NCBI GenBank assembly: GCA_046350815.1
Contig: JAXLZO010000001.1
Span: 1,200,001-1,232,000, forward strand
Direction: 5' to 3'
DNA from: Candidatus Saccharimonadota bacterium
GTDB taxonomy: Bacteria > Patescibacteriota > Gracilibacteria > BD1-5 > UBA2023
DNA length: 32,000 nucleotides
Shown: positions 1 through 32,000 of the stretch, in pieces
Position numbering within the stretch: position 1 is the first letter of the stretch
How the letters are laid out: the number at the start of each line of letters is the position of its first letter
Position numbers and translations under genes: made by a program
Notes under the pieces: generated by a model
Told to the model about the DNA's origin: nothing
The model's database searches: none
Seen by the model: only the letters and a program-made list of their open reading frames with translations

Positions 1-406
1 CAAGTGCATCGAGATGACCACATCCATTCATCAGAGCCATAATCTGTGAGGTCTTCGATCCTGGTGCAGCACATGCATCAAGCACATTCATACCAGGAGA
101 GAGATCCATGCAGAGTGCAGGTATCTGTGAAGAGATAGATTGTAGATAGATTTTTCCACTATTAAATATTGGATTTCCTTTGATCGTATACTCCTCCTCA
201 CGAGTGATCGTATAGGCATGATCAATACTTGGAAAAGCTACTGGATGTATACCGAGAGATGCAAGTGACTTGAGTGCTTCACTATCCGTCGTACGAAGTG
301 TGTTGACTCGTAGTGATGCGTCACGCTTGAATGCAAGATCCTCCCGAATGAGTGCTATATCTGCTTCAGTCAAATAGGTCATCAAAGATGAAAGAAAAGT
401 TTGCAT
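1..406 (-). CDS. NOL1/NOP2/Sun (RsmB/RsmF-type) RNA cytosine-C5 methyltransferase, N-terminal part; the gene runs off the left edge
   Basis: Reverse-strand ATG at 406-404. Translation MQTFLSSLMTYLTEADIALIRED...GKIYLQSISSQIPALCMDLSPGMNVLDACAAPGSKTSQIMAL carries the SAM-binding D-x-C-A-A-P-G-x-K-T motif of this family. The frame stays open to position 1. Confidence 0.8.
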   Translation of the reverse strand, partial: MQTFLSSLMTYLTEADIALIREDLAFKRDASLRVNTLRTTDSEALKSLASLGIHPVAFPSIDHAYTITREEEYTIKGNPIFNSGKIYLQSISSQIPALCMDLSPGMNVLDACAAPGSKTSQIMALMNGCGHLDAL

Positions 407-463
407 TTTTTTGGATTATCAAACAATAAGAGATATACTATAGTCTTAGTTGTCTTTTTTGCT

Positions 464-3037
464 ATGCAATTTCCAAATTTCACCCCAGAATGTCGCCAAG
501 TTCTCATAGATAGTGAGCTCCGTGTCCAAAAATTATGACTCTCCTGGGTGACGAGCAGCGAAGTATTTTTCTCGCTCCTTGAAAGTAATCATCCGCAACT
601 CCAGGATTTTTGTATGACCCATGGCCTGAATTCAGCGATCATCAGAGAAGTTCTCAAAGAAGATACGAACTCAAGCGAAGATGAGAAGAAAACCCCAGGA
701 TCATACACAGGAATGAGCACGGTTGTCAAAGATATTATTGTGAATTCTGCCAAAACAGCAGCACACTTTCAAAAAACAAGCATCGATGTGTTTGATCTTT
801 TTCTTGCAATATTGCAGAATGAAGGAACAAATCATATCCGAAATGCACTTGCATTTGTAGGTATAAGCCCCAGTGATCTCGAGGGAAATATCAATGAAAT
901 TAACAAATTTCTTGCCGGAAGCCAGAGTGGCAATCAAGATATATTTGGCCCCCTTGATGGAATTATTGAAGCACTCGAGGGAGATATGGATATCTCTGAT
1001 GGTGGACAAGAGCACGATGTATTCGCACAAAATATTCCACCAAAACGAAAAGCCAAAGAATCAAATACGCCAGCTCTCGATTTCTTCGGTACAGATCTCA
1101 CAGAAGAAGCTCGAAATGGGAAGATCGATCATATCATTGGTCGCGACACCGAGATCGAGCGACTTGTATCCATACTCAACCGAAAGACGAAGAACAATCC
1201 ATGTCTCGTCGGAGAACCAGGCGTGGGTAAGACTGCTGTGGTTGAGTGACTTGCGCTGCGAATCGCACAAAGCAAAGTCCCTCTTGCTATGCGCGACAAG
1301 AAGATCATCGCTATCGACCTATCAAGTGTGGTAGCGGGAACAAAATACCGATGAGAGTTCGAATCACGCCTCAAGCAAATTATCGATGAAGCATCAAAAA
1401 TGGAGAACGAGATTGTCCTTTTTATTGATGAGATTCATACGATTATTGGAGCATGATCTGGAGAAGGATCGCTCGATGCAGCCAATATTCTCAAACCCGC
1501 AATGGGAAGAGGGAAAATCTCTGTTATTGGAGCAACCACTCAGAATGAATACAGTAAACATATTGAGAAAGATTCCGCTCTCGAACGTCGATTTCAGAAA
1601 ATTAATGTTGAAGAACCAACTAATGATGTTGCTCTCTCGATTATTACCGGGATCAAAGAAGGATTTGAAGAATTTCACAACCTCAATATTTCGAATGAAG
1701 CAATCAAGGCGAGCATTGATCTCTCGACAAGGTATATCACTGATCGGTATTTACCAGATAAGGCAATCGATCTCATTGATGAAGCCTGTAGTGCTAAATC
1801 TATGACCTACACGCACAGCGATGATGAGAGTGATGCTATTCGCGAAAAGATCGAAAAACATCAAAAAGATATTGATGCCTTTGTGACAAGCGGGCAGCTT
1901 CATAAGGCACTCAAAGTAAAAGAAGCAATGCATAAACTCGAAGAAGAGCTCACAAACATGAAGGCAAAGCGAACAATCCCAAAGAGTAAGCGACTCATCA
2001 TAACAACAAAGGATATACAAAAAATCGTCCATCAAATGACCGGCGTTCCAGCAGCCAATCTTGAGAGCGAGGATATTTCGAGGCTGAAAAAACTCCCAAA
2101 AACACTCAAATCACAAATTATTGATCAAGAGAGTGCTATTGACGCTATTGTATCATCACTCAAACGATCGAGAACTGGTATAGGTGAGCCAAATCGTCCA
2201 ATCGGATCATTCCTCTTCCTTGGACCAACGGGGGTAGGTAAAACAGAATTAGTACGTGTACTCGCGCGAGAATTCTACGGAGATGAAAAAGCGCTCATCA
2301 AGATCGATATGTCCGAGTTTGGAGAGCGATCAAGTGCTTCAAAACTCATAGGAACAACAGCTGGTTATGTTGGGTATGATGATGGTGGACTCCTCACTGA
2401 AAAAGTCAGAAAAAGCCCATATTCTATCGTACTTTTCGATGAGATCGAAAAAGGAAATTTTGAAGTATTTCATCTTCTTCTCCAGATTCTCGAAGATGGA
2501 GTTATTACGGATGGTCGCGGTCGAAAAATCAACTTCAAAAATACGATTATTATCATGACGTCGAACATTGGAAGTGAAGAATTTGGAGAAAAATCAGCAC
2601 AAATTGGCTTCAGTATGTCCAATGAAGAAGAAGGTGAAATCAAGAGAGATTTTGATAAGATTCGAGAAAAAGTAATCAGCTCACTTGATGACTATTTTGC
2701 ACCAGAACTTATCAATCGTATTGACAAAATCACCGTATTCGATGCACTTACTCAAAAATCTCTCAAAAAGATTGTTACACTTCAACTTCAAAAACTTCAA
2801 GAGCGACTTGAGGGAGTAGGAATGATGTTTGAATTTGATACGAAGAGTGTACATCATATAACTAAGGCAACGTTCGATCCAAAATTCTGAGCTCGTAGTG
2901 TCCGCCGATATATTCAAGATCATGTGGAAGATATGATTGCAGATCATCTCATTAATCATCCAAAAGATACACAATTTATTCTCACTCTTGAGAAGGAAAA
3001 AATTGTGATCAAAACCAACAAATCATCTTTTGTGTAG
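464..3037 (+). CDS. clpC: ATP-dependent Clp protease ATP-binding subunit, ClpC-type AAA+ chaperone (857 aa with UGA=Gly)
   Basis: ATG at 464, TAG at 3035-3037. Track ORFs 548-1249 and 1502-2890 are in one frame, joined through TGA at 536, 1247, 1352, 1454 and 2888. Clp_N-like N-terminus; Walker A motifs [15 protein letters not shown] and [10 protein letters not shown]; short middle domain rather than the long ClpB coiled coil; IGF-type ClpP-docking loop ([10 protein letters not shown]). Confidence 0.9.
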
Positions 3038-3040
3038 AGA

Positions 3041-4612
3041 ATGAAAAAAAGAAGCTCATCTGTCGTTCTTGCTCATTTCATCGGAATTATTTGATGGAGC
3101 ATTTTTTTGGGTGGACAGATGAGCCAAGTTTATGCGATTGGAGATCTTGATATTTATCGAGCGAATCTTACAAAAACGTCCCAATGACAGAGTGACTCCG
3201 CAACACGACGATTTAGTGCGCTATCAAAATCAAAAACACATGATCTCTTCAAGATTCAGTGTTCCTATGGACCTTGTTTTTCGCAAACGGCAGTATTTAC
3301 TCCACGGATTATCACCGATTTGAGCAAGGGATATTTGAGCAAATACATGACTCCAAGCATGATCGGTGTGAATGGAAGCGTGGCTTATAACACGGAGGAT
3401 TTACAACTCATTAGCAATACTGCAGTAGGAATGCTACGTGATATCAATGCAGACTCAGTAAAAGAAGCACAAGATTCTTCAAAAGCGATCAATTATGGGA
3501 TCTATGCTGATGGTAATAAAGAAAATTCAGGATTTGATCTCATGACCGATATCGACAATATCAACACGATTCTCTTCAGTCAAACAACCAATTACCCAAG
3601 TACCAAAAATATAGCACTCGATAGTCTCAAAGATGCTGTGAGATCAAGTGCGAGTAATCTACAAGCTACCGAAGTAGCAACGCGCGCAAGCAATACCAGC
3701 GAAGTAGCTGGAAAAAACAGTCTTGTGCCATCACCAGATGCAAAACCACTCTCCTCAATATTCAACGAACAAAGTCCATCAGCAACGCTGATGTGTCTGC
3801 CGAGTGATCAGGTGGCTATCAATGTAGCATCATCCATCAATCACCCAAGTGAAACAACTATAAGTCGTAGCGTAACGAATGGTACAACTGGCGGATCTTT
3901 TGGTATCCCTATTAGTCGCACAAGCGAACCAACAGGAAGTGATAAATGCGGACCAAGCTCAGAATTTTGTATCGTCACGGAAGCAGTAAAATATAACTAT
4001 CTCCTCCTCTGAGGGGGAAAAACCGTGAGTATCGACTCAGTATTTTCACGTCATGCAGATATAGCATCGCAATATGCTCAAGCGGATTTTACTCCAGGAA
4101 AAGTAACGCGTTCATTTTTTGAGTCAACTCGGTCCTCCATCAATCTCGCTGGTAATCTTTCATTCCAAGTGATCACCAATACTCTTCCTATGCCAAGTGC
4201 CAATGTGAACAAGAGAAAAGCAAAAGATCCATCATCCAGTCAATCAGACCCATCAGAACTTGATAAAAACTTTGATAAAATTGCAGGGGAAATATTTGGA
4301 AATTATGGACTCAAATATAATGCGCCCTACCGACCATGAGAAGGCGACAAAACCAAACTTGATCTTACACTCAATTGTTCGCCAACAGATACAACATCCC
4401 ATTGTTTCAACAGGTTAGATCAAGATGTAACTAGCACATCGCTCAGCTCACATAGTATCAAAGAAACAGCTTATGTCGTCACCAGTGATGCATGGAACGA
4501 AGATCTAAAAGCACTTCAAGGTTTTACTACAAGTCTTTATCAAGCTATCGACAATATCAATGCAGCTTTCGCTGTGGGAAAAGCAAAACCTCATAGTCCG
4601 CAAAACAACTAG
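3041..4612 (+). CDS. hypothetical secreted or membrane-anchored protein (523 aa), Ser/Thr-rich
   Basis: ATG at 3041, 3 nt after the clpC stop; TAG at 4610-4612. Track ORFs 3320-4012 and 4025-4339 are in frame, joined via TGA codons. N-terminus MKKRSSSVVLAHFIGIIGWSIFLGGQMSQVYA looks like a signal peptide or TM helix. No family recognised. Confidence 0.65.
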
Positions 4613-4618
4613 AAATGT

Positions 4619-5986
4619 ATGTTTATTTTTTATCGATTCGTACTCAGCATCATTCTCTTTATGGGAATAGGATTTCAGAATAATGTTTTGTTTGCAGCAG
4701 AAACATGTAGTGTAAGTAATCAAGCAAGTCCAGAATTTCGAGAATATCAGAACAAACTCAATTCAGAGCTTGGAAAAATCCGTGGTGAGATGGCAGCAAA
4801 AACCTGCTGAGCCACACCATTTTCCAATACCAGCATTGAACGTGAAAAATCAAAATGAACTGATCTCATGTACTCGATCATCAATGAAACACGAGATCTC
4901 AATACACTTCAATCATCGTTTCGATTCAACATATCTAGACTCCTCTCTTCAGATGATCTTCCACTTTTACGAAGAGAGCGAAATACACTCACGAACCAAG
5001 CAAAAGCAATCGAGCAGACTGTAGATGAAATGTTTGGACGATGTGCTGGGGACCTCCCCTATAAGAACGGAACACTGCGATCAAATCTCTCACAAATATA
5101 TGCTGATCATGTCCGATTTACTGCCTATTTCGAATCAGTTGCATCTGGATGGAATTGACTCTCGCTACCATCTATTACTCCAAAAGTGATAGGTGACAAT
5201 CAAGATTGGCTCCCAAATATTACCAGCAGCTACAAACCAGAATGACTCAAACCATGCTACGAAGAAGGAGCTACCATGATGGGAACATGGGAGAGAATTG
5301 TCAAAATATGGACGGGAGGAGCAAGTATATCAAAATGAATCCAAGCATGGCAGGATGCTTACTCACTTCTCATTGGAACAGATCCAAACTACAATGCAAA
5401 ACAAAAGAAACTTCTCTCAAGTTATCTCTCAGAAAATGGTATCACGGGTGATGCACGAGATAATATTATGAGCAAGTTAGACTGTAAACAAAAAGGTGGA
5501 AGTAATTGTGGATGACCAGTGAGTTTTGGTGGTATTGATGGTATTGTGCAAATGAAAAATGAAGCAATAGGTCTCTATACTGATATGAGATCAACTATGG
5601 TAAACTTCCGAAAGATGACCAAAGAAACTCAGACTCAATACGCCAATGCTCTCAAATCATACCAATGAGAAGGTGGGGTCGCAGGTGCATTCAAGAATTT
5701 GAAAAATATCATTATACCAGTACCTGATGTTGATACACAATCCATCATTACCGATAGTAACTATTCACAAGATTTGGAATATATCCATCTCACAACACAG
5801 AATCTCTATACAACCCTCCGGTCAAAAAGTAGTTCTGATTTTACCGACCAAGCATCAATCGATAATCTCAAAGCGATAAACCAAGAAGTCTATATGATCA
5901 ATGAAAAACTGAAGTGAATGGAGAAGCTATCTATCTATATGTGCAAAAGCCAAGATACAGCACAAGCATGATTGTGTATCAAATAA
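4619..5986 (+). CDS. hypothetical secreted protein (455 aa)
   Basis: ATG at 4619, TAA at 5984-5986. Track ORFs 4619-4810, 4868-5158 and 5699-5917 share one frame and are joined only by TGA. Signal-peptide-like N-terminus MFIFYRFVLSIILFMGIGFQNNVLFAAE. Several paired Cys residues. No family recognised. Confidence 0.65.
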
Positions 5987-6031: not shown

Positions 6032-6592
6032 TTATATTCTTCGAAAAGGTCATTTCATAGAGCCAATCATAACAATACCAGCACTCAGACATCCAAGAAT
6101 AATTCATACAAGGATATCACTTGGATAGTGAACCTGCAAATAGAATCGTGAAAAAGCAATCAAACAAGCAAGGATACAGACAATTCATGTAATTATCGGA
6201 TATTTCCGAGAGAAAAGCCAAGTGAAAAGTAATGCAAATGCCACCGAAGCGCTCGCATGACCCGATGGAAAAGAAGATGTAATCGGTGGGGATACGAGCA
6301 AATGGATAGAATCAATAGTTTCAAAAGGGCGAGCACGGTGGAAGATATGTTTAAGAATAACCTCTCACAAAAGAATATTCACACATAATCCAGCTAAAAG
6401 AATAGAAGATTGGATACGAAACTTTTGATAGAAAAACAACCCAACAATCATTCCCATCCATACCATTCCCCAGTCCCCAAGATGAGTCATAGATATCATA
6501 ATGTGATCCAAGAAAGGAGTATGAAGAGAGGCTGCCTGCTCAACCCAATACATATCCCATAAGGCAATAACGCCAAAAATATGATCTATCAT
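6032..6592 (-). CDS. PAP2-family lipid phosphatase (undecaprenyl-diphosphate/phosphatidic acid phosphatase type), 186 aa
   Basis: ATG at 6592; TAA (complement) at 6032-6034; track ORF 6365-6592 extended through TGA codons. All three PAP2 motifs are present: KHIFHRARP, PSGHAS and SRFYLQVHYPSD. Multiple TM helices. Confidence 0.85.
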
Positions 6593-6598: not shown

Positions 6599-9500
6599 TT
6601 ATATGAGTCGTCTTATTGCTATCTCGAGCGTACCGAGCTCATCAAATTCTTCGCTCTTTCGAAGATCTGCTTGTGAAATCTCAGATACAAATATTGCAAG
6701 TGTTTCATTCTGTATAAACATACCATGACTTTCTATTACATCATCGATTGCACCAGAGAGAGCAATCTCGATACGATCTGATACATCATAATTTGCCTCT
6801 TTTCGCATATCTTGGATGATACGGACGAGATCACGAGCATATCATTCACGAGCAAGCTCCGGAGTGATTGATGTATCGAGAGCAATAACCATATGTCCTT
6901 CACCCGCCACGTCAGATCATTGCACATATGGCTCGTACGCATTCGTGAATTCCCCAATTTCGAGTATGTGACCAGCAACAACAACCCTACCATCCTCGAG
7001 AGATTCAAATACTCCTTGTTTTCCAGATTGAATAATCGACTGAATTTCCTTACCAAATTTTGGACCGAGAAGACGCGCATCTACCTTGATAATAGAACGC
7101 GCAATCGTATCTGGCGAAGTAGTGACGATTTCATGAATATTGAGCTCGTCACGGATAATTTCACTTGCCATCTCATCAAACTCTCGAGAGATAGTAATGC
7201 GTGAAAGTGGCTGACGAACACGTATTTTTTTCTGTGCCCGCAGTGAAAGACCAAGGCGGATAACACTGCGAACATCCTCCATTTCAGCATTTAGATGAGT
7301 ATTGACATGATGCCTCGAAAATTCTGGCCACATCGAGAGATGTACACTCTCTGATCATGTAAGACCACAATAGAGAGATTCACTGATAAATGGACAGATC
7401 GGAGCAAGAAGCTGAGTCACGCTTACAAGTGTTCGATGGAGCGTTTCATACGCTGAGAGCTTGTCGCTGTCATTTCCTGATTTCCAGAATCTCTTACGAG
7501 AGCGTCGAACATAGAAATTCGTGATATCATCAATGAGTCGTACGATTGATGTAGTTGCTCGAGGAAGATGGTATTCATCAAGAGCAGAAGTCACCTCTGC
7601 AATCGCGACTTGAAGACGAGACGACATCCAGATATCGAGTGGATTGACGAGTGGATATGGTGGTAATTCTAAAACTTCAGCATTCACGAGACGAAGCGCA
7701 TGCTCATGAGTCGTTGATGATCGAGCAAAACGTGATACACCCACAGCGCGACCTGTACCACCATGTGCAACCATCAAGATACGTTCATTCGGATATTTTT
7801 GCTCCAACATGTCAATATATGTATTTACACGCTGGAGAAATTCAGCCTCTGTCTCAGCTCCAAACGCAAGTGCTTTTTCAAAATAATTCGCATGGGTTAC
7901 GCTTGGATCAAGCGCTTGCATCTCTGTGAGAGTAAGAGAAGAGAACTTTCATGCACTTCGCTCTTGAAGTTCTTCATGAATTTCAAGAGAAAGATGTTCC
8001 AATCCAAGTTCCCGACGTACGATTTCAGCAGTCTCCTGAGTTCGAATTGAGGGAGTGACGATAATACGATCGAATGTTTTTCCTTGTAACTTGAGTCGTT
8101 TTGCTGTCTCGTATGCCTGTTGTTTTCCAAGTTCAGTAATATGAACATCGGCACCACTATCACTCACACGTCATGTCGCATTTGCTTCACTCTCAGCATG
8201 TCGCATCAGAGTAATAGATCATTTTCTCGGTGACCAACCATCAATATTCGCATAGGTCGTGAAGAAGCTGTATGTATTCCAAATGGGGAGAAGTACACTT
8301 TTAACAACTTCTTCAACCCCCTGCTCACTAAAACGAAGATCTTCTGCTCGAGTCGCAGGAGAGGAAAGAATATAGAACCTCAATGCATCCGCACCATGTT
8401 TTGAGAGAAGAAGCTCTGGATCTGGATAATTCTTGAGAGACTTTGACATTTTCTTGCCATCTTCAGCGAGAATCAGTCCATTAACGAGGACATGATGAAA
8501 TGGTGGCTCATCAAAGAGTGCAGTTGAGAGTACCATGAGCGTATAGAACCAACCGCGAGTTTGATCAAGGCCTTCAGCGATAAAATCAGCTGGAAAAGTA
8601 TTCGTAAATCGATCCTTTTCGCCAAAAGGAAAATGCTTCTGTGCATATGGCATCGATCATGATTCAAACCAACAATCCAATACCTCCGTGACACGAGTAA
8701 GAGTTTTACCGGACTGTGGATCTTTGAGTCGAATCTTATCAACAAAATGTTTGTGAATATCAACCAGCTCATTGGTAAAGGTATAGTAATATTGTCCATC
8801 TTTCTGATAAATATCTCCAAAATCTTTGTTCAGTTCATACAACTCCGCAATAGATGAGATGCAAACCTGTACTTCCCCGTCATCACTTTTCCATACAGGA
8901 ATTGCCGAACCCCAATAGCGATTACGTGATATATTCCAATCACGCGCGCCCTCAAGCCATTTGCCAAATCGCCCATCACGAAGCATTTCTGGCGCCCAAT
9001 TCGTCTTTGCATTGTTTGCAAGCATCTTCTCACGAAGTGACTCAACATCCACATACCATGCAGATATTCCGCGATAGATAAGTGGGGTTTTACATCGATA
9101 ACAATGTGGATATGAGTGGTCTATCGTGCCTACATGGACAAGTATTTTTCGATCTTTGAGATCTCTAATAACGGTATCATTGTAATCAAAGACGAATTCA
9201 CCAACTCAAAAAGAAATATGCTCGACATTTCCGGTCATATTGATGTGGCCAACATATCCAAGATCTTTTTCAATACCGATAATATTATCATCCTCACCGA
9301 ATGCGGGAGCAATATGTACGACTCCCGTACCCGAATCTGTTGTCACATGATGACCGACAACAACCGAATACACATTTGATCCGAGATTCATACCACGAGG
9401 AAGCTCGTTCATCTCATTCCAGTCAGAATAGAGTGGTTCATATTTGAGTCCAACGAGACATGATCCTGGGTAGCTACGTACCAGAGTATAATCATCAGGT

Positions 9501-10315: not shown

Positions 10316-10801
10316 TTAGTTATGAAAAAATGTATGTTTTCGGATGATTTGTTCAATATTTGCAGATCCGTAAAACTTCAACGAAGAAATTCTACCAATA
10401 TCTATCCATTCTGCCTGACTCATCCAAGCCTTCTCGCTTTCTTCGAATCATTTATCTGATAGTTCTCATCAGAGAATATGTGCTGAATAAAAAATCAAAA
10501 TGGATTGAATATATCGCTTCGAAGTATTCGTTCGAAAGAATGCACTCTGACAATCAAGCAATGATTCTATTTCGATATCGTATCCAGTTTCTTCTTTTAC
10601 TTCTCGAACAAGTGCTGCCTCGATAGATTCACCAAGTTCAATCCGTCATCATGGAAGACCATAACCATCACCATGTTGTGGAATAAGGAGTATCTTTCAA
10701 TCTTGAATAATGACACCATAGACCGAAGGACAGAAACGAAGCTCAGAAGATGGAACCTCAAAGGAATTTCCATCTTTGTCATGACAAATAATATTTCTCA
10801 T
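10316..10801 (-). CDS. Nudix hydrolase (161 aa)
   Basis: ATG at 10801; TAA (complement) at 10316-10318, 6 nt before the ileS start. Nudix box GLPGGRIELGESIEAALVREVKEETG, with both PGG glycines encoded by TGA. The standard-code track shows only out-of-frame fragments here. Confidence 0.85.
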
Positions 10802-10812
10802 ATTTACATTAT

Positions 10813-22600: not shown

Positions 22601-22999
22601 GTATTCCTGTTCGGATTGTACACGAGTGTCCTCCCAGGATTGGTCATTCTGCTCCTCCTCTTGATCTTGATGAGCAAGAACAAGTACCTCAAGAGGATTG
22701 ACTAATGATTTTTGCCCTGAATCGTCTGATTGAACAACATCAGAAAGATTATTCACTTGAGAAGAGACTGACTCTAGATGTTTTAGAGAAGATCACACAG
22801 ATGAGAACTCAGCAAGTGATGAACGGATAGTAGACTCTGAGAAAATCACTGCTTTAAGAATCGCTCAGCAAATAATTCCAGAAATGAAGGCATCTGCCAT
22901 CGTACTACGAGAATCAAATAACCCAATAAGCGTAGCGCAAAGTACCATTCAGAGCAATATGGACAGAATCCATGCAATACGGTTGAGAAGAGAAAACAT
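19634..22999 (-). CDS. large polytopic membrane protein, DUF2339-like (1121 aa)
   Basis: ATG at 22999, TAG at 19634-19636. Track ORFs 22418-22756, 21461-21778, 21122-21361, 20705-21061, 20243-20605 and 19634-19897 are all in frame. I scanned the gaps 21779-22417 and 22757-22999 and the only in-frame stop codons are TGA. N-terminal TM helix, then an acidic Gln/Glu-rich linker, then more than 20 hydrophobic helices and a soluble ~150-aa C-terminus. Confidence 0.75.
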
Positions 23000-24874: not shown

Positions 24875-24949
24875 TGGGGATTCGCCAAGTGGTAAGGCAG
24901 CGGACTTTGACTCCGCCATGCGTAGGTTCGAATCCTACATCCCCAGCCA
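24875..24949 (+). tRNA. tRNA-Gln (anticodon UUG), CCA encoded
   Basis: Manual cloverleaf fold. Acceptor TGGGGAT/ATCCCCA with the U1-A72 pair typical of bacterial tRNA-Gln; D arm GCC-AAGTGGTAA-GGC; anticodon arm GCGGA-CTTTGAC-TCCGC; variable loop CATGC; T arm GTAGG-TTCGAAT-CCTAC; discriminator G followed by CCA. Confidence 0.9.
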
Positions 24950-25111
24950 TTTCCTAGTTTGTCCACAAAAGAGTAGTTCATTGAACGGCTCTTTTATTTT
25001 GTAGGCTAGGTTACTACCATCTGCTTCCAAGTTCGCAAATATAAAATTTATAAGTTCTCATTTTTTTTTCTGAGATTTGCGAACCCTTGAAAAGCATGTG
25101 GGCTCGATTTA

Positions 25112-25688
25112 CTAGTTCCAGTACGTACGAAGACGATATAAAAAATGATTCTTGAGTTGTTCACAAGTATCTCACTCTTCTTGTTTTGAGCTTCTGTATC
25201 TTTTTGTCATATTCATTGGCTGTAATTCTCATATTTCCGCATAAATATAATATAATTCATCGAGATCAGAATCACTTATCTGATGAGTATCAAAAGCATA
25301 AAGCAATCCAGACAAACGCGCAATATGATACATCATCAATGAATATTCGTCCTGCATAAAAAAGATGATCATGAAGTTCATAATCATTCCACAACTCATC
25401 ATCGAACTTTTGAATCACTTTTTTATATCACTCTACTTCTCCAATGTCAGTCAGCAAGCAAGCAATAAATAAATAATACTCAGCATCTGTATAAGGTGTG
25501 CTTGGCTCAGATTCAAAAGCCTCAAAAATTTGCATCAAATACCAAAAATATATTGGATCTTAAAAAGCAGTATTCCATTCAAGGTCAAAGCCCTCTTCCA
25601 TTGCATTTGGTGCAAAAGATGAATCAAATGCAACGAAGGATTTCTGAAGTGTGAAGTTATTGGTTGTTTTTGGTCTTTTGAAAATCAT
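25112..25688 (-). pseudogene. decayed gene downstream of hsdR (internal TAA plus a frameshift), unknown family
   Basis: ATG at 25688, 22 nt after the hsdR stop, gives 42 codons and then TAA (25562-25560). The same frame continues plausibly (DPIYFWYLMQIFEAFESEPSTPYTDAEYYLFIACLLTDIGEVEGYKKVIQKFDDELWNDYELHDHLFYAGRIF). The plausible reading then moves to another frame (MMYHIARLSGLLYAFDTHQISDSDLDELYYIYAEI...), ending at TAG 25112-25114. Confidence 0.35.
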
Positions 25689-25710: not shown

Positions 25711-28671
25711 CTATACTTTTTCTCGCAGCTTCTCAGTGACAATTTTATCAAGATATCGAATAAGATGCTCTTGAAAATCGTTATTATCGTGGTAGTTATT
25801 ATAGAATTCTAAATGATCATCTACATTTGTGACAATTTTCTCCTTTATCAGATTATTAAAAACTAATTTTCTGTTTGCTCTATCTGTCTGGAGTGAATCA
25901 ATCATTCTCTGATCTCCCACTATCTCATCAGATATATCCGAAATCATCTTCTTTACTTTGTCCTCACTGCTAAAATTCGTACCAAATCGAGTATTGAATT
26001 CAGTGACTATATGATCGAGTATATCTGTAGGTATATCAGTTCCTGAACCAATGAGTGTTGTTGGCATCGGCGTGAGTTCTCCATCTTCTGCGAGGCTGAT
26101 ACGAGCATTTGAAGTCATTTTCTCGTTTCTATACGACTCAAAATCTATAGCATCGAGGACATCCTGACTGATGATAGTTTCTTTCGATCCAAGTTCTATA
26201 ATCTTTTTATAGAGAACCTTGAGGAACTGATAGAGTTCTTCAAATTCAACGACATCATAATCAACTATCTGAGAAATAAAGCTATAGAACTTTGTATATG
26301 ATTTTGTTTTATCCTTGAAGTCATCTATCTGATCGACAGGAAGTTTTTTGATATTCTCGACTACACTATCGAGCATAGCGTGGAGCTTTTCGACTGACAC
26401 GCCTGAGAGTATATCGGTTGCGAATTTATTGACCACAAATGAGTCATATACTCCGAAAGCATCAAGAGCATCTTTGAGGTCGTGAAGCTTATTTGGATCG
26501 CTGCCACTCGCAAGAATAGTAGTCTTATAATAAGGCTCAAATGATTTCTGAATATCTTCTTCAGTGTTGTAGAAATCAAGGACAAATACACCTTCTTTGT
26601 CTTTATGGACTCGATTGAGTCGAGATAGAGTTTGCACAGCGTTGACTCATCCGAGCTTCTTATCGACATACATCGTCTGGAGAAGTGGCTGATCAAATCC
26701 TGTCTGGAATTTATTAGCACATATGAGAATCTGATAATTTCCATTTTCGAACTCATCAGGGATTTTACTGGAGCTAAAGTGATTGAGATTCGACTCGTTC
26801 CAATCAGTCCCATCGATATTCACATCTCCTGAGAAAGCCACAATTACAGCAAGAGGAAGATTTTTTTCTTTGATGAGTTGTTTGAAGGCAAAGCTATATT
26901 TTACCGCACTCTTACGACTTCCACATACGACCATTGCTTTTGCTCTTCACCCTACAAGTCCCTTGAGATATACCTGATTATAAAAGTGATCTATCATCAC
27001 TTCTGCTTTTTTCTCTATGGTTGCCGTGTGAGTCTCCACGAATCCTTTGAGCTGTCTATTTGCTCGTTTTTTATCATACTCACGATCCTTATCACCTGTG
27101 ATGATGAGTTCATAATAACTCTGGAAGGTAGTATAGTTCGAGAGCACATCCATTATAAATCCCTCTTCGATAGCCTGTTTCATCGTATAGTTATGATACG
27201 CCCGATATTTTCCATCATCTCATCGTACTCAAAATATTTCGAGAGTTTTATTCTTTGGAGTGGCAGTGAAGGCAAAATAGCTTGCATTTGGAAGCATCTT
27301 TCGAGCTTGTAGAGTCTCAAGGACTACATCCTCATCGGTATACTCTTCTACACTTTCTTCGTCTTTTTCTTCTTCGAGTGTCATTGTCTTATTCATCTTT
27401 CCGATTGTCTCACCACTGGTACTGGAGTGAGCCTCATCGATGATGATAGCAAATCTCTGACTTCAGAGTGTTCCTATCGTATCGACTATCATCGGAAATT
27501 TCTGAATAGTTGTGATGATTATTCTTTTTCCACTCTCCAATGCTGATTTGAGCTGTTTACTTCCATCTGTGATAGCTTCTACGAGTCCACGAGTATGATC
27601 AAATCCACTCACTGTATCTCTGAGCTGTTTATCGAGTACCTGACGATCAGTGATGATAAGGATACTATCAAATACATTGGTCACTCCGTCTTGCATATAG
27701 AGTCCTGCGAGTTGGTGAGCGAGCCATCCAATAGAGTTACTCTTTCCACTTCCTGCACTATGCTGTATGAGGTATTTTTGTCCTGTTCCTTTTCCTTTTG
27801 CATCCTGAAGGAGCTTATTTACTACCGTGAACTGATGATAGCGAGGAAAAATCAGCTTTCGTACTTTCTTGCCTCATTTTTCTTCGATGATGACTTGTGC
27901 GAAGTCTCGTATCAGCTTAGAGAGATTGGATTTTGTAAGGATTTCTTCCCACATATAGCTCGTACGAATACCATCTTCTAATGGAGGATTTCCTGCTCAC
28001 TCATTGTATCATTTGTTAAATGGGAGAAACCAAGTCTTGTTATCTTCGAGTCGAGTCGTCATATAGACAAGCTCTGTATCGACTGCAAAATGCACAAGGC
28101 ATCGCTCAAATCGAAAAAGCTCTTCACGACTACTTCTATCAGTTTTATACTGCTCGATAGCATCTTTTACATTTTGTCCTGTGAGGAGATTTTTGAGTTC
28201 GAGAGTTGTGATTGGGAGTCCATTGATAAGAAGTACCATATCGATGGACTTATTGTTCTGGAGGCTAAAAAATAGCTGTCTCGTCACGATAAAGGTATTG
28301 GCTTCCCAGAGAGCTATGAGATCTGGATTCAGAGTCGAATTTGGCTCAAAAAAGAAAACCATAATATGGGCATCTCTATCTTTCACTCATTTTCTCATCA
28401 CGTGTATGATTCCTTTTTCTGCGATTTCTTTCTGGAGTCTCTGGAGGAATTTTGATTGATATGATTCTCCATAGTTTACTCTGAGTTTTTCGATCTCTTT
28501 TGGCTGTGTTCGCTCTACGAAATCCCAAAATGCCACAAGGTCGATACATTCCTTACGGTCATAATGTCCTGAATGTTCTCCAGAGTAGAATTTCTGGACG
28601 AATCCATTTTGTTTGATGAGGGATTCAGTGAATAATTGCTCGAATCCTGATTCACGAGTATTGGTAGACAT
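25711..28671 (-). CDS. hsdR: type I restriction enzyme R subunit (986 aa)
   Basis: Track ORFs 28387-28671, 28009-28386, 27463-27696, 26947-27183, 26647-26934 and 25711-26637 are in one frame. In gaps 27184-27462 and 27697-28008 the only in-frame stop codons are TGA. N-terminal nuclease region (FFEPNS...IDMVLLINGLPITTLELK), helicase motif I (HSAGSGKSNS), DEAH box (IIIDEAHSS) and motif VI (QTLSRLNR). TAG at 25711-25713. Confidence 0.93.
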
Positions 28672-28681: not shown

Positions 28682-29932
28682 TTATGAAATACTGATTTTC
28701 CCTGTTACTGTTTGATAGATGAGACTGGTCTGGTATTCTTCGATGAGAGCGATTTCTTGTTCTATTTTTGCTATGGCTGAGTCGATTTGAGATAATTGTT
28801 GCTCGATATACTGAATAATTTTATTCTGGGTAAAATTATTTGGTAATGGAATCACTATATTTCATACAGTGTCGATATTTAGATTGAGTTGTGTTCATTC
28901 TTTTCAAATTCAAGAGTAGGCTAATCCTGAATATAAGATATAAAATAAATACATCTTATTTATTCTCTCATTTAGCTTTCAAAAAGTTACAAATCAATCG
29001 TGAATGCAACATTTTATGTTTGCAATTATTGGTTTTCATACGGATCAAGCTATACTGAGAAAAAGGTCTCAGGGATATTGTTTTACGCTCAAAGATGCTC
29101 ATAATTCGGACAACTGTTGCTCTGTAGTCTCAAGATACATATTGCTCGCACTTACATCTGATATTCTAACCCAAGCAAATTCTCCATTATCATCAAAATA
29201 TTTTTTATCATCTATTGGACGTGGCGAGGCTCATCTTTTTATATTTGAAAGCATTTTTAATCTCCTTACTTCCCAATCCTCTGGAATTTCTCCAATCCAC
29301 GGGATTCCACTCTCTTTCATCTTTGCATTTGGATCAATTCACTTCGTGACAGCACGATGGATAATAGATTGTTTTTGTTCTTTGAGAAGCTCGATGAGTT
29401 TTCTTTTATTTTCGACGAGTTTCTTGATCTCAGTCGTTTTTTGGTCGAGGAAGTTAGCGATGGCGGTTTGAGTGGAGAGAGGAGGGAGAGGGATTTGAAA
29501 ATTTTGTAGCATTGGGAGCCTCAGGCTGTCCACTGTAGATTTTGCAGATATACGCAAGACTTCATTATAAAAATTCGATTTCATGAAGTAATAAAGATAT
29601 TTTCATGTTACTTTCCGAAAATCGGTAAAGGCATATACTCTTTGATGAAACGCAAATTTTCATTGAAAATAATGAAATACTCGTCATGCTCAAACTCAAT
29701 CTCATGCAGTCAACACAGCCTCGCAATCCATAGAATATGAATCCAAACTTTCAATATTTTCTGATCTTACAAAAAATGGATAGATTCCATCGGGCAAGTT
29801 ATCTTGAGTATCTTTATCTCAAGTTTGAATTCTAGCCAGAAATTTCAATCGTCTCACTTCCCAATCCTCAGGAATCTCTCAGATCCAAGGGATATTTGAT
29901 TGTTTTAGGGATGTTGTAGGACTTTGAGTCAT
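28682..29932 (-). CDS. hsdS: type I restriction-modification S (specificity) subunit, two TRDs (416 aa)
   Basis: ATG at 29932; TAA at 28682-28684, 10 nt before the hsdR start. The block IPWIGEIPEDWEVRRLK is duplicated at the start of each TRD. Central conserved region (PLPPLSTQTAIANFLDQKTTEIKKLVENKRKLIELLKEQKQSIIHRAVTKG) and C-terminal conserved region (IIQYIEQQLSQIDSAIAKIEQEIALIEEYQTSLIYQTVTGKI). Confidence 0.9.
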
Positions 29933-30067: not shown

Positions 30068-30553
30068 TTATCAGGATATATCTATCTTATAATGCTCATA
30101 CTCTTTGAGCATTTTTTGTTTGTATCTATTCGAATCTATAGGAAATGCAGAAATAAGTACGATATAATCTTTTCTCTGAGACAAGACTACCAGGTAATCA
30201 AAATTTTCATCTGAAATATAGTATTTTTGTTCATTATTTTTTGCTCTTTGCCAAACTTTCAAGGTGTCTACGCTGTCTATATAGTGTCGTGGGAATCGTA
30301 TTCTTTTAGCTCTTGGAAGACAAAATTCTCGATCCTCAGATCATAGTTTTTCGATCGTTATAATATGGTGAAATCACCATTCGTACATTATGCCATCAAG
30401 ATCCAAATATGGTTTTTTCTTGAGATTTACAGGAAAATCAAGGAAAATTGCCGATTTATTTCAGAGGGTAGATCGAAATATAGGATAAATCCTCCCGAGA
30501 AAATTATGGAGTCACTCAGTATCGAGTTTTTGTTCAAGATTTGGCAATGGCAT
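30068..30553 (-). CDS. hypothetical protein (161 aa) embedded in the type I R-M operon
   Basis: ATG at 30553, 2 nt after the DUF3800 stop. Five in-frame TGA codons; ends ...KIDIS-G(TGA)-TAA at 30068-30070. Track ORF 30071-30262 is its C-terminal part. No family recognised. Confidence 0.6.
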
Positions 30554-30555
30554 AA

Positions 30556-31278
30556 TTAACAGCTTATATTTTGAGGTTTCCAGAAAAAGAGATTAAATTT
30601 CTTTTCTCATCTTAGTGTACTTTTTCTGAGTGAATACTTACTTCGTTCTTCAATCCGTTTTATAATTTCTATTTTCGCGGAACTGGTTTCAAGGTCTCGA
30701 TTAACATAGGCAAGTGCTCACGCAAATATATCAGTCAGTTGCATTATTTCAACCTCGTGAGATCGTATGAGTTGTATTTTCTTTATGATCCTATGATTAA
30801 AGTCATACATCGAATTTATAAGAACATCATTGAGTTTTTGTATTTTTTCTCAACCATTTGTATCTTTTATGTCTATATAGAAATTATAGCTATATTCAGG
30901 ATCAATAATAGATAAAAGTTGCCAGTACATCTTATAGTACCAATCATTATATGTTTGATTGAATTGAGCGTGGTCGAGAGTGTCTTTATCTGTTATGACT
31001 AAGGCTCGAAGTACAATATCATCATCATCAAAAAAATAGTCTACCAAATCCAGATAAAAATCTTTTTTTGAATCCGATATTTTTGTCCATTTAACTTCTT
31101 GAAATTCTGATATTCAATGCTTTTTCTTGATTTCTTTTATCCGTGTAAAGATTTCAAATCTCTTATCTTGAGGCACTTGTACACCTGCAAGAACCATTAC
31201 TTTTTTATTTTGTCCATTGAGAGAATTATCATTCTCAAGGTGACAGCTTTCATCACAATAAAAATTGTATGTTGTCAT
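30556..31278 (-). CDS. DUF3800-like protein (240 aa) embedded in the type I R-M operon
   Basis: ATG at 31278, 4 nt after the hsdM TAA. N-terminus MTTYNFYCDESCHLEND (the xxxDES start characteristic of DUF3800), a mid-region acidic block, and C-terminal LTDIFAGALAY. TAA at 30556-30558. Track ORF 30850-31047 is an internal piece. Confidence 0.6.
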
Positions 31279-31282
31279 AGAT

Positions 31283-32000
31283 TTATTGGATTATCGCAGA
31301 TAAAACCCCATCCGTTTCTGCTTCGAGAGCGAGTATATCTCTCGTGATGTCTTCGAGACTTCGAGGTGGAGTGTATTCGTAGAAGTATTTATTGAAGTTG
31401 ATCTCATATCCTACTTTTTTCTCCTTCTCGCTGATCCAAGCATCAGGAGCAAATGGGAGGACTTCTCGTGCGAAGTATTCCTGTATATCTTCTTTGAGTG
31501 GGATATTTTCCTTATCTCTCAGGTCTGCATCTGGTTCTGGTTTTCCTTTCTTTGTGATGATATTTCCATTCTCATCCCTCTTTGGTCGTTCGACGATGAT
31601 CTGAGTGTAGCCGAAGTCTTCATTATCAAATATCTTTGAGTATTCTGTTTCCTTGAATCCATCAAAAAGCTCATAAATTTTCTGGATTCCTGCATCTTTT
31701 ATCTCATTTCTCTTGCTTCCGAGACTCTTCGTCATCTTCGTGAAGAACTCACTACTTGTAGCATTGATGAGTTGGATTTTACCTTTCTTGTGAGTAGGTT
31801 TTCGGTTCGTCATTACCCAGATATATGTCCCAATTCCAGTATTATAGAAGAGTTCTTTTGGGAGAGCAATGATGGCTTCGAGATAGTCATTTTCGATTAT
31901 ATGTTTACGAATCTCACTCTCTCCGCTTCCTGCATCTCCTGTGAAGAGAGCAGAACCATTGTGTACTGAGGCGATACGAGTCCCGAGTGGTGTATCGTGT
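31283..32000 (-). CDS. hsdM: type I restriction-modification M (methyltransferase) subunit, C-terminal part; the gene continues beyond the right edge
   Basis: Translation ...NGSALFTGDAGSGESEIRKHIIENDYLEAIIALPKELFYNTGIGTYIWVMTNRKP...KGKIQLINAT...FGYTQIIVERP... is the typical HsdM C-terminal region. TAA at 31283-31285. The frame is open to 32000. Confidence 0.88.
   Translation of the reverse strand, partial: HDTPLGTRIASVHNGSALFTGDAGSGESEIRKHIIENDYLEAIIALPKELFYNTGIGTYIWVMTNRKPTHKKGKIQLINATSSEFFTKMTKSLGSKRNEIKDAGIQKIYELFDGFKETEYSKIFDNEDFGYTQIIVERPKRDENGNIITKKGKPEPDADLRDKENIPLKEDIQEYFAREVLPFAPDAWISEKEKKVGYEINFNKYFYEYTPPRSLEDITRDILALEAETDGVLSAIIQ

What the first reader, a model, noticed from the sequence alone, without database searches (positions are those of the whole stretch)
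1..32000. The window is written in genetic code 25 (UGA = glycine)
Every long gene is broken in the standard-code track only at TGA, and the pieces always stay in the same frame. The TGA codons fall where the protein families have invariant Gly:
- 1247-1249: ClpC GKTAVVE-G-LA
- 1352-1354: KYR-G-EFE
- 1454-1456: IGA-G-SGEG
- 8657-8659 (minus strand): IleRS WFES-G-SMP
- 15894-15896: P-type ATPase PE-G-L
- the Nudix box LP-G-G
- the IS1595 transposase SYF-G and KRGR-G-AG

Every gene I reconstructed terminates in TAA or TAG, never TGA. Trp is still encoded by TGG, so this is not code 4. This places the organism in the Gracilibacteria or Absconditabacteria (SR1) type of recoding, and it means any standard-code annotation of this contig would be badly wrong.
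Basis: partly seen in the sequence, partly recalled or inferred. Interest (0 to 1): 0.65.

Follow-up and report, generated by a model that had tools for sequence, protein, structure and literature searches.

The report
UGA-as-glycine code in a Gracilibacteria genome
This stretch of DNA comes from an uncultured Gracilibacteria bacterium that reads the usual stop codon TGA as glycine; the claim is correct, but this code has been known since 2013 and NCBI already annotates this genome that way.

Summary
Confirmed, but already known.

- **TGA is a sense codon.** Dropping TGA alone from the stop set lengthens the longest open frames from 478 aa to 884-1239 aa. Shuffled sequence never exceeds 287 aa. 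All five quoted coordinates are in-frame TGA. Nineteen gene models hold 152 in-frame TGA and end in TAA (13) or TAG (6).
- **TGA means Gly, not Trp.**
  - Across 84 TGA columns of IleRS, scored against 15 standard-code orthologues translated from DNA, log-odds are Gly +79, Ala -56 and Trp -101.
  - ClpC gives 4/4 and the ATPase 9/13 TGA sites on Gly of solved structures.
  - Four Pfam profiles score higher with Gly and lower with Trp.
  - The two half-repeats of hsdS differ only synonymously, including TGA versus GGA.
- **No other recoding.** CGA and CGG remain Arg, so this is plain table 25, not the SR1-type extended code.
- **Already annotated.** My Gly translations match, residue for residue, NCBI proteins on a 1,283,673-bp contig labelled Candidatus Gracilibacteria bacterium.
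- **Not reachable.** tRNA-Gly(UCA) and loss of RF2 could not be checked.

Side lead: the IleRS carries an inserted, apparently active histidine-phosphatase domain, shared by a clade of recoded relatives. I found no paper describing it.

The parts
1..406 (-). RsmB/F-like methyltransferase, N-terminal part. The gene runs off the left edge. 0 TGA in this part.
   Evidence: Open frame seen. Upstream contig L025 carries a Methyltr_RsmB-F call at the matching position.
464..3037 (+). ClpC AAA+ chaperone, 857 aa, 5 in-frame TGA, TAG stop. TGA at 1247-1249, 1352-1354, 1454-1456 and 2888-2890 each align to Gly of B. subtilis ClpC.
   Evidence: Pfam hits. PDB 3j3s alignment gives 4/4 Gly. The Gly version is identical to an NCBI protein.
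3041..4612 (+). Unknown protein with an N-terminal hydrophobic segment, 523 aa, 4 TGA, TAG stop.
   Evidence: No Pfam family.
4619..5986 (+). Unknown protein, 455 aa, 9 TGA, TAA stop.
   Evidence: No Pfam family.
6032..6592 (-). PAP2-family phosphatase, 186 aa, 4 TGA.
   Evidence: Pfam PAP2 scores 79.1 bits with X, 84.6 with Gly and 77.1 with Trp. The Gly version is on record from NCBI.
6599..10309 (-). Isoleucyl-tRNA synthetase (eukaryote-like type), 1236 aa, 9 TGA. TGA at 9797-9799, 8657-8659 and 6842-6844 fall in columns that are Gly in 14/15, 15/15 and 15/15 standard-code orthologues.
   Evidence: The Gly version is identical to an NCBI protein.
7652..8233 (-). Histidine-phosphatase (His_Phos_1) domain inserted in IleRS (aa 693-886), between the catalytic and anticodon-binding domains. 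This is a side observation.
   Evidence: Pfam E = 7e-28. Absent from 17 orthologues. Present in relatives. Catalytic R-H, R, E and H residues are invariant.
10316..10897 (-). Nudix hydrolase, about 184-193 aa (start uncertain), 9 TGA. TGA at 10649-10651 and 10646-10648 form the 'LP-G-G' of the Nudix box.
   Evidence: Pfam NUDIX scores 49.8 bits with X, 62.1 with Gly and 40.0 with Trp.
10813..11667 (-). DUF4357 protein, 284 aa, 10 TGA.
   Evidence: The Gly version is on record from NCBI and the Trp version from Logan/ENA.
11965..12909 (-). Unknown protein, 314 aa, no TGA (7 GGN). It reads the same in any code.
13059..14156 (-). Unknown protein, 365 aa, 12 TGA.
   Evidence: The Gly version is on record from NCBI and the Trp version from Logan.
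14283..14972 (-). Small protein, 229 aa in NCBI's model (117 aa in other calls), about 10 TGA.
   Evidence: P0075.
15138..17765 (+). P-type Ca2+-ATPase-like pump, 875 aa, 13 TGA. Nine align to Gly of Listeria LMCA1. TGA at 15894-15896 is the 'PE-G-L' site, where LMCA1 has Ala.
   Evidence: The Gly version is identical to an NCBI protein.
17843..18226 (-). MazG-type NTP pyrophosphatase, 127 aa, 2 TGA.
18289..18981 (+). IS1595-family transposase, 230 aa, 8 TGA, including 'SYF-G' and 'KRGR-G-AG'.
   Evidence: Pfam DDE_Tnp_IS1595 scores 88.1 bits with X, 94.4 with Gly and 81.9 with Trp. The Gly version is on record from NCBI, and sister copies are named IS1595 family transposase [Candidatus Gracilibacteria bacterium].
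18999..19566 (-). GNAT acetyltransferase remnant with a 1-nt frameshift relative to the NCBI TPA strain. TGA sits on the Gly of the 'GK-G-IGARA' loop.
19634..22999 (-). DUF2339 polytopic membrane protein, 1121 aa, 17 TGA.
23011..24687 (-). Thrombospondin type-3 repeat protein, 558 aa, 8 TGA.
24875..24949 (+). tRNA-Gln(UUG), the only RNA gene in the window. It is not the UGA decoder.
   Evidence: ARAGORN. Rfam RF00005, 65.1 bits.
25014..25535 (-). Unknown protein, 173 aa, 6 TGA.
25711..28671 (-). Type I restriction enzyme HsdR, 986 aa, 9 TGA.
   Evidence: The PDB alignment is too distant to be informative.
28682..29932 (-). Type I specificity subunit HsdS, 416 aa, 20 TGA against 6 GGN. TGA at 29879-29881 is matched by GGA in the gene's own second half-repeat.
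   Evidence: The Gly version is identical to an NCBI protein.
30068..30553 (-). Unknown protein, 161 aa, 5 TGA. The last sense codon is TGA, immediately before TAA.
30556..31278 (-). DUF3800 protein, 240 aa, 4 TGA.
   Evidence: The Gly version is on record from NCBI and the Trp version from Logan.
31283..32000 (-). HsdM methyltransferase, C-terminal part. The gene runs off the right edge. 0 TGA against 16 GGN.

Best explanation
The window is chromosomal DNA of an uncultured Candidatus Gracilibacteria (BD1-5-type) bacterium that uses NCBI translation table 25. UGA is decoded as glycine throughout, UAA and UAG are the only terminators, UGG remains Trp, and CGA and CGG remain Arg.

**Shown here:**
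- TGA is a frequent in-frame sense codon, making up 24% of all Gly codons.
- TGA occupies Gly positions in conserved proteins.
- TGA is interchangeable with GGN between relatives and within one gene.

**Inferred from what is established for this clade, not observed here:** a dedicated tRNA-Gly with anticodon UCA is charged by GlyRS and reads UGA, and release factor 2 has been lost, so nothing terminates at UGA.

The share of Gly codons written as TGA rises in AT-rich genes. That fits AT mutation pressure converting GGA to TGA once the codon had been captured.
For: 1. **Only TGA interrupts genes.** Longest open frames go from 478 aa to 884-1239 aa when TGA alone is dropped, and are unchanged when TAG or TAA is dropped. 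Shuffles reach at most 287 aa. Coverage by frames of at least 150 aa rises from 39.6% to 95.1%.
2. **IleRS, scored Codetta-style** against 15 standard-code orthologues translated directly from DNA. Over 84 TGA columns from three recoded genomes, log-odds are Gly +79.1, Ala -56.4 and Trp -100.9. Columns at least 80% conserved are 37 Gly, 2 Asn, 2 Trp and 2 Glu. Controls give TGG to Trp +202.6 and GGN to Gly +149.1. For the window alone, Gly is +6.7 over 7 columns and TGG to Trp is +67.7.
3. **Solved structures from standard-code organisms.** ClpC gives 4/4 aligned TGA on Gly. The ATPase gives 9 Gly, 1 Ala, 1 Phe, 1 Leu, 1 Asp and 0 Trp. The IleRS motif CWFES-G-SMPYA matches. HsdS has several G-S-x-G sites.
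4. **Pfam bit scores with TGA read as X, Gly and Trp.** Nudix 49.8 / 62.1 / 40.0. IS1595 88.1 / 94.4 / 81.9. HsdS 97.0 / 115.9 / 84.4. PAP2 79.1 / 84.6 / 77.1. For HsdS, Gly beats Ser, Ala, Arg, Asn, Cys, Leu and Trp.
5. **Internal control.** The two half-repeats of hsdS encode IPWI-x-EIPEDWEVRRLK and differ only by synonymous changes plus TGA versus GGA.
6. **Relatives.** Where L001 has TGA, the window has GGN at 28 of 44 sites and never TGG.
7. GGN alone gives 5.0% Gly, and adding TGA gives 6.7%. TGG gives 1.0% Trp.
8. **Public record.** The Gly translations of 10 window proteins (IleRS, ClpC, ATPase, HsdS, PAP2, DUF4357, the 365-aa unknown, IS1595, DUF3800, MazG) are exact matches to NCBI proteins on a 1,283,673-bp contig. 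A sister IS1595 copy on that contig is named [Candidatus Gracilibacteria bacterium].
9. **Literature.** UGA = Gly in BD1-5 has been confirmed by proteomics, with 97 Gly-specific against 3 Trp-specific peptides (PMC4032931). The clade hallmarks are described in PMC8629427 and in the gTranslate preprint.
Against: - **The decoding machinery was not seen.** The window has only tRNA-Gln(UUG). None of the other recoded contigs scanned holds any tRNA gene. prfA and prfB could not be searched in this genome.
- **About half of the TGA columns are variable**, and a few align to non-Gly residues: Phe, Leu and Asp in the ATPase, and Ile/Val or Lys in IleRS.
- **The HsdS margin is small.** In that profile alone, Gly leads Ser by only 3 bits.
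- **No protein-level evidence exists for this organism.**
Confidence: 0.97

Rival explanations
1. Translation table 4: UGA is a sense codon but encodes tryptophan, as in Mycoplasmatales and several insect endosymbionts.
For: - UGA is clearly sense and RF2-independent termination is implied, which tables 4 and 25 share.
- Public gene calls from Logan and ENA for this organism's contigs carry Trp at these positions.
- One IleRS column with TGA in L001 and L002 is Trp in Bdellovibrionota orthologues.
Against: - Trp log-odds is -100.9 over 84 columns, against +79.1 for Gly.
- No TGA aligns to Trp in ClpC, the ATPase, IleRS or HsdS of solved structures.
- Trp lowers all four Pfam scores below the X baseline.
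- Trp content would be an abnormal 2.6%.
- In the single Trp column, the window itself has a GGN Gly.
- The Trp versions in databases come from pipelines that appear to have applied table 4 or table 11 (inferred). They are not evidence about decoding.
Confidence: 0.01
2. SR1/Absconditabacteria-type extended code: UGA = Gly, and in addition CGA and CGG reassigned from Arg to Trp.
For: - Codetta reported CGA/CGG to Trp in Absconditabacteria, and CGG to Trp in some Gracilibacteria (PMC8629427).
- The relatives L001 and L002 almost lack CGA and CGG.
Against: - In the window, CGA is the most used Arg codon (145 per 10,000) and scores Arg +17.7 over 17 IleRS columns.
- CGA pairs with AGA in the hsdS internal repeat.
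- CGG sits on conserved Arg in ClpC (R428), the ATPase (R796) and IleRS (R1024), and on Lys in ATPase R271.
Confidence: 0.02
3. Standard code with TGA as stop: the interrupted genes are pseudogenes or sequencing errors, or the TGAs are selenocysteine or read-through sites.
For: Under code 11 the window shows only short ORFs, which on its face resembles a degraded genome.
Against: - All 152 interruptions are TGA, with no TAA or TAG and no frameshifts in the long genes.
- The sequence is 100% identical in independent assemblies from several runs.
- The TGA sites are conserved or swapped with GGN in relatives.
- They align to Gly, not Cys, and 16 per 1000 codons is far beyond any selenoproteome.
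- Essential genes (IleRS, ClpC) would all be inactivated.
Confidence: 0.005

Closest known systems
NCBI translation table 25 (Candidate Division SR1 and Gracilibacteria code; UGA = Gly)
   Same: - In-frame UGA at Gly positions, UAA and UAG as the only stops, and UGG still Trp.
- A CPR-type genome with moderately low GC.
- The nearest relatives are recoded MAGs labelled Gracilibacteria.
- NCBI's own proteins for this genome use Gly.
   Different: Nothing in the codon assignment differs. The tRNA-Gly(UCA) and RF2 loss that define the mechanism could not be checked here. GC (about 39%) and heavy CGA use are higher than in the two nearest representatives (26-29% GC, almost no CGA).
Absconditabacteria (SR1) code as inferred by Codetta (UGA = Gly plus CGA/CGG = Trp)
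   Same: UGA = Gly, and a sister lineage within the same recoded clade (GTDB class JAEDAM01, per the gTranslate preprint).
   Different: CGA and CGG are abundant and read as Arg in this window.
Translation table 4 (Mycoplasma/Spiroplasma and endosymbionts; UGA = Trp)
   Same: UGA captured as a sense codon in a reduced, AT-leaning genome. Termination is by UAA and UAG only.
   Different: The amino acid is Gly, not Trp. Automated pipelines that apparently choose only between tables 11 and 4 therefore mistranslate this genome.
Selenocysteine recoding of UGA
   Same: UGA read as sense inside genes.
   Different: Sec insertion is rare, depends on a SECIS element and aligns with Cys or Sec. Here every gene is affected, at 16 sites per 1000 codons, and the sites align with Gly.

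Membership tests
Genetic code 25 (UGA = Gly) | UGA occurs in frame inside conserved protein-coding genes | tested here: met
   There are 152 in-frame TGA in 19 genes, and homologue alignments run colinearly across them.
Genetic code 25 (UGA = Gly) | UGA positions correspond to glycine in homologues from standard-code organisms | tested here: met
   - IleRS log-odds are Gly +79.1 and Trp -100.9.
- PDB alignments agree.
- Pfam scores agree.
- The hsdS internal repeat pairs TGA with GGA.
Genetic code 25 (UGA = Gly) | Genes terminate only at UAA or UAG | tested here: met
   There are 13 TAA and 6 TAG stops. The C-termini agree with homologues and with NCBI's models.
Genetic code 25 (UGA = Gly) | UGG retained as Trp | tested here: met
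   TGG to Trp scores +67.7 in the window over 22 columns.
Genetic code 25 (UGA = Gly) | tRNA-Gly with anticodon UCA (G1:C72, C2:G71, G3:C70, U73) | not testable with these tools
   The only tRNA in the window is Gln(UUG). No tRNA gene was found in any reachable flank or relative. The 1.28-Mb contig could not be fetched.
Genetic code 25 (UGA = Gly) | Loss of release factor 2 (prfB) | not testable with these tools
Genetic code 25 (UGA = Gly) | Placement in the Gracilibacteria/Absconditabacteria clade (GTDB class JAEDAM01) | tested here: inconclusive
   - No marker-gene phylogeny was possible.
- The nearest IleRS relatives are two recoded MAGs at 64-65% identity, labelled Ca. Gracilibacteria and Ca. 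Peribacteria.
- NCBI labels proteins of the matching contig Candidatus Gracilibacteria bacterium.
SR1-type extended code (CGA/CGG = Trp) | CGA and CGG rare and aligned to Trp | tested here: not met
   CGA occurs at 145 per 10,000 codons and scores Arg +17.7. CGG sits on conserved Arg at three sites.
Genetic code 4 (UGA = Trp) | UGA positions correspond to Trp in homologues | tested here: not met
   Trp log-odds is -100.9. No TGA aligns to Trp in the PDB alignments. Trp lowers every Pfam score.

The most novel reading that the evidence does not exclude
The code itself holds no novelty. The most novel reading the evidence allows concerns IleRS.

This lineage, and a clade of other TGA-recoded bacteria, have an isoleucyl-tRNA synthetase with one or two catalytically intact histidine-phosphatase domains spliced into it. 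One relative adds a serine-hydrolase segment. Site 2 lies between the KMSKS/catalytic body and the anticodon-binding domain. Site 1 lies inside the catalytic domain.

If these domains are active, IleRS in these organisms is a bifunctional enzyme of a kind I found no description of. The partner activity might act on a phosphorylated nucleotide or on a tRNA end.
Probability: 0.45. Interest if true: 0.45.

Novelty: already known. Interest (0 to 1): 0.15.

Why it matters
**As a discovery it does not matter much.** UGA = Gly has been NCBI table 25 since 2013 and was validated by proteomics in 2014. NCBI's record for this genome already uses it.

**It matters practically.** The same organism's contigs in other public resources are either cut into fragments by code-11 gene calling or translated with table 4. 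Table 4 puts Trp where Gly belongs at about 16 of every 1000 residues, often at invariant catalytic glycines. Examples are the ClpC Walker-region glycines, the Nudix box and the IleRS CWFES-G-SMP motif. Such entries pollute protein databases and profile searches.

**The result also refines the description.** This genome keeps CGA and CGG as Arg, so it should be translated with plain table 25 and not with the extended SR1 assignment.

Tried and rejected
- **Decoding machinery.** I looked for tRNA(UCA) with ARAGORN on the window, on the two recoded GTDB relatives, on 10 contigs of the same organism, and on 7 contigs of relatives. No tRNA was found other than the window's tRNA-Gln. Rfam found nothing else in the window.
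- **Extending the window.** The look-up of encoding contigs refuses Gly-translated proteins. TGA-bounded code-11 fragments gave only 2.6 kb more on the left. Proteins of the 1.28-Mb NCBI contig are not in the position index.
- **HsdR against solved structures.** EcoR124I is too distant (E about 1e-13, patchy alignment) to say anything about its 9 TGA sites.
- **Strain-level TGA/GGN swaps.** Only two TGA-involving differences exist between the window and the NCBI TPA strain (TGA/TCA and GGA/TGA), which is too few to use.
- **Campbell et al. 2013.** The paper (PMC3619370) is not held, so the tRNA-Gly(UCA) and RF2 statements rest on secondary sources.
- **A pattern scan of metagenomes for Gly-like tRNA(UCA).** I considered this and dropped it, because hits could not be tied to this genome.
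- **Horizontal transfer as the reason hsdM and the 314-aa gene have zero TGA.** I considered this and dropped it. 0 of 16 and 0 of 7 are not remarkable after correcting for 19 genes, and TGA share tracks gene GC.

Full report
**1.

Under the standard bacterial code the window contains only short ORFs, the longest 478 aa. Treating TGA alone as a sense codon produces open frames of 1239, 1130, 998, 908 and 884 aa. Doing the same with TAG or TAA changes nothing.

In 200 shuffles of the window, the longest TAA/TAG-free frame averaged 175 aa and never exceeded 287 aa. Frames of at least 150 aa cover 39.6% of the window with TGA as stop and 95.1% with TGA as sense.

Nineteen gene models contain 152 in-frame TGA (16.1 per 1000 codons), no in-frame TAA or TAG, and end in TAA (13) or TAG (6).

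Pfam identifies these genes:
- ClpC
- a PAP2 phosphatase
- IleRS
- a Nudix hydrolase
- DUF4357
- a P-type ATPase
- an IS1595 transposase
- DUF2339
- a thrombospondin-type-3 repeat protein
- a type I restriction-modification system (HsdR, HsdS, HsdM)
- DUF3800

Later comparison added MazG, a GNAT remnant, an RsmB-like fragment and a 229-aa gene.

**2. TGA means glycine.** Six independent lines agree.

(a) *Solved structures from standard-code organisms.* In ClpC all four aligned TGA sites face Gly of B. subtilis ClpC: AE-G-LA, KYR-G-EFE, IGA-G-G and EY-G-AR. In the ATPase, nine sites face Gly of Listeria LMCA1, with one each on Ala, Phe, Leu and Asp and none on Trp. The Ala site is the PE-G-L motif of transmembrane helix 4, which from general knowledge is Gly in SERCA-type pumps. 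IleRS CWFES-x-SMPYA faces Gly in the yeast and human enzymes. HsdS shows several Gly matches with the M. jannaschii and other S subunits.

(b) *An annotation-independent test.* A scan of one genome per GTDB species with IleRS returned 18 loci. Two of them (L001, L002) are themselves TGA-recoded, with 44 and 37 in-frame TGA in IleRS and standard-code ORFs under 180 aa. The others read normally.

I translated 15 standard-code orthologues straight from DNA and aligned them with the three recoded genes. A Codetta-style log-odds over 84 TGA columns gave:

| Codon(s) | Best amino acid | Log-odds | Other values |
|---|---|---|---|
| TGA | Gly | +79.1 | Ala -56.4, Trp -100.9 |
| TGG (control) | Trp | +202.6 | |
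| GGN (control) | Gly | +149.1 | |

Columns at least 80% conserved were 37 Gly, 2 Asn, 2 Trp and 2 Glu. The two 'Trp' counts are one alignment column shared by L001 and L002, and there the window has an ordinary GGN glycine. The share of TGA columns that are conserved Gly (37 of 84) equals that of GGN columns (56 of 124). So TGA behaves as a normal Gly codon.

(c) *Synonymy between relatives.* Where L001 has TGA, the window has GGN at 28 of 44 sites, TGA at 2, and never TGG.

(d) *Synonymy within one gene.* The two half-repeats of hsdS encode IPWI-x-EIPEDWEVRRLK. They differ only by synonymous changes (CCT/CCG, ATC/ATT, GAG/GAA, AGA/AGG, CGA/AGA, TTG/TTA and others) plus TGA versus GGA.

(e) *Curated Pfam profiles*, in bits, with TGA read as X, Gly or Trp:

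| Family | X | Gly | Trp |
|---|---|---|---|
| Nudix | 49.8 | 62.1 | 40.0 |
| IS1595 | 88.1 | 94.4 | 81.9 |
| HsdS | 97.0 | 115.9 | 84.4 |
| PAP2 | 79.1 | 84.6 | 77.1 |

For HsdS, Gly also beats Ser (112.8), Ala (107.0), Arg (101.2), Asn (100.2), Cys (96.7) and Leu (85.6).

(f) *Composition.* GGN alone gives 5.0% Gly, and adding TGA gives a normal 6.7%. TGG gives 1.0% Trp, which would become 2.6% if TGA were Trp.

**3. No other codon is reassigned.**

Codetta reported that Absconditabacteria also read CGA and CGG as Trp, and that some Gracilibacteria read CGG as Trp (PMC8629427). Here CGA is the commonest Arg codon (145 per 10,000) and scores Arg +17.7 over 17 IleRS columns. It also pairs with AGA in the hsdS repeat.

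CGG (22 per 10,000) sits on conserved Arg in ClpC, the ATPase and IleRS, and on Lys at one further ATPase site. No other codon gave a supported departure from the standard meaning. The code is therefore plain table 25.

**4. Whose DNA it is, and what the public record says.**

The window is 100% identical to Logan assemblies of runs SRR26348419-23. It is 93-98% identical to a contig of the NCBI TPA MAG GCA_964536125.1 and to other contigs, which are therefore other strains.

Exact-sequence look-ups found the Gly translations of ten window proteins on record from NCBI, on a contig of 1,283,673 bp:
- IleRS (1236 aa)
- ClpC (857 aa)
- ATPase (875 aa)
- HsdS (416 aa, with 20 TGA)
- PAP2
- DUF4357
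- the 365-aa unknown protein
- IS1595
- DUF3800
- MazG

A sister IS1595 copy on that contig is named 'MAG: IS1595 family transposase [Candidatus Gracilibacteria bacterium]' (MFO0763303.1 and others). So my gene models reproduce an existing table-25 annotation residue for residue, and the organism is already labelled Gracilibacteria.

By contrast, the Trp versions of several of these proteins are on record from Logan, ENA and the unannotated TPA contig. Other Logan contigs carry code-11 fragments.

**5. Mechanism: what is shown and what is inferred.**

Shown:
- UGA is sense.
- UGA corresponds to Gly.
- UAA and UAG terminate.

Inferred from the literature on this clade:
- A tRNA-Gly(UCA) with Gly identity elements decodes UGA.
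- RF2 has been lost (PMC8629427; gTranslate preprint).
- UGA = Gly was confirmed by proteomics in a BD1-5 bacterium, with 97 Gly-specific against 3 Trp-specific peptides (PMC4032931).

Neither the tRNA nor prfB could be examined. The window has only tRNA-Gln(UUG), and no tRNA gene lies in any other DNA I could reach.

The TGA share of Gly codons ranges from 0 (hsdM fragment 0/16, the 314-aa gene 0/7) to 0.77 (hsdS 20/26). It is highest in the most AT-rich genes. That is what AT pressure on GGA would produce after codon capture; this last step is inference.

**6. Rival explanations.**

- *Table 4* is excluded by the alignments, the Pfam scores and the Trp budget.
- *The SR1-type extended code* is excluded for CGA and is unlikely for CGG.
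- *Pseudogenes, sequencing errors, selenocysteine or read-through* are excluded for four reasons. Only TGA interrupts the genes. The long genes stay in frame. Independent assemblies are identical. The sites are conserved or exchanged with GGN in relatives.

Retention of TGG = Trp does not separate code 25 from code 4.

**7. Verdict on novelty.**

The finding is correct and well observed. It describes a known code in a known clade, in a genome that NCBI already translates correctly. I rate it 'already known' with low interest.

**8. Side observations.**

*The IleRS insertion is the most interesting thing in the window.* A 194-aa histidine-phosphatase domain (Pfam His_Phos_1, E = 7e-28) sits between the catalytic body and the anticodon-binding domain, at aa 693-886 (window 7652-8233, minus strand).

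- It is absent from both nearest recoded relatives and from all 15 standard-code orthologues.
- It is present in independent assemblies and in NCBI's protein.
- A search with the insert found dozens of database fragments that combine tRNA-synt_1, His_Phos_1 and Anticodon_1, at 37-86% identity. All are shorter than 480 aa, as expected from code-11 calling on recoded genomes.
- I reconstructed three of these genes from DNA. All three are TGA-recoded. They carry two phosphatase insertions, and one has an added Ser_hydrolase segment.
- In an alignment of six inserted domains at 22-59% identity, the catalytic Arg-His, Arg, Glu and His residues are invariant.
- Solved relatives are only distant: dPGM, PhoE and CobC at E about 1e-6. 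The substrate is therefore unknown.
- Two literature searches found nothing on such an architecture.

*Other notes:*
- IS1595 is inserted between MazG and GNAT, which are adjacent in the TPA strain, and the GNAT gene is frameshifted.
- A strain from SRR11567520 lacks the Nudix-DUF4357 segment.
- L001 is labelled Peribacteria, of phylum Peregrinibacteriota, but is plainly recoded.
- No Shine-Dalgarno-like motif precedes any of the start codons.

Noticed in passing
window 7652-8233 (minus strand), inside IleRS 6599-10309; relatives L029, L031, L032: IleRS carries an inserted 194-aa histidine-phosphatase (His_Phos_1) domain between its catalytic and anticodon-binding domains. It is absent from the 17 orthologues compared. 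It is shared, sometimes twice and once alongside a Ser_hydrolase segment, by a clade of other TGA-recoded bacteria. The catalytic R-H, R, E and H residues are invariant in six domains that are only 22-59% identical. Two literature searches found no description of it.
   Followed up: partly
window, all genes; extremes are hsdS 28682-29932, hsdM 31283-32000 and the 314-aa gene 11965-12909: The fraction of Gly codons written as TGA varies from 0 (hsdM fragment 0/16, the 314-aa gene 0/7) to 0.77 (hsdS 20/26). It is highest in the most AT-rich genes. This is probably AT pressure on GGA and not evidence of foreign origin.
   Followed up: partly
public protein records for window genes (for example 13059-14156, 10813-11667, 30556-31278, 17843-18226): The same proteins exist in public collections in two forms: Gly versions from NCBI's annotated 1.28-Mb contig, and Trp versions from Logan and ENA gene calls. 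Other Logan contigs carry code-11 fragments. So a sizeable share of public entries for this lineage are mistranslated or truncated.
   Followed up: yes
window 17843-19566; compare L020 3117-4076: IS1595 (18289-18981, with 8 TGA codons of its own) sits between MazG and a GNAT acetyltransferase. Those two genes are only 3 nt apart in the NCBI TPA strain. The window's GNAT has a 1-nt deletion that shifts its frame, so it is a pseudogene or an assembly error. The TPA strain also has two extra genes (157 aa and 224 aa) that the window lacks.
   Followed up: partly
L024 (SRR11567520) against window 10310-11752: A 98%-identical strain lacks the segment holding the Nudix and DUF4357 genes and has an acetyltransferase there instead. 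This is a strain-variable islet next to IleRS.
   Followed up: no
L001 (CAZKUA010000002.1) and L002 (JALNXF010000006.1): L001 is labelled 'Candidatus Peribacteria' (phylum Peregrinibacteriota), a lineage not listed among the table-25 lineages in the papers read here. It nonetheless has 44 in-frame TGA in IleRS and no standard-code ORF above 146 aa, so the label is probably wrong. Both relatives (26-29% GC) almost lack CGA and CGG, whereas the window uses CGA as its main Arg codon.
   Followed up: partly
20 nt upstream of each of the 18 complete gene starts: None of the start codons is preceded by a recognisable Shine-Dalgarno (GGAGG-like) motif. The upstream regions are AT-rich.
   Followed up: no
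window 25711-32000; relative L033: The type I restriction-modification operon is interrupted between hsdM and hsdS by a DUF3800 gene and a 161-aa unknown gene. A relative at 85-90% identity keeps this order, but has a different, longer HsdS (497 aa) and an extra DUF6602 gene before hsdR.
   Followed up: no
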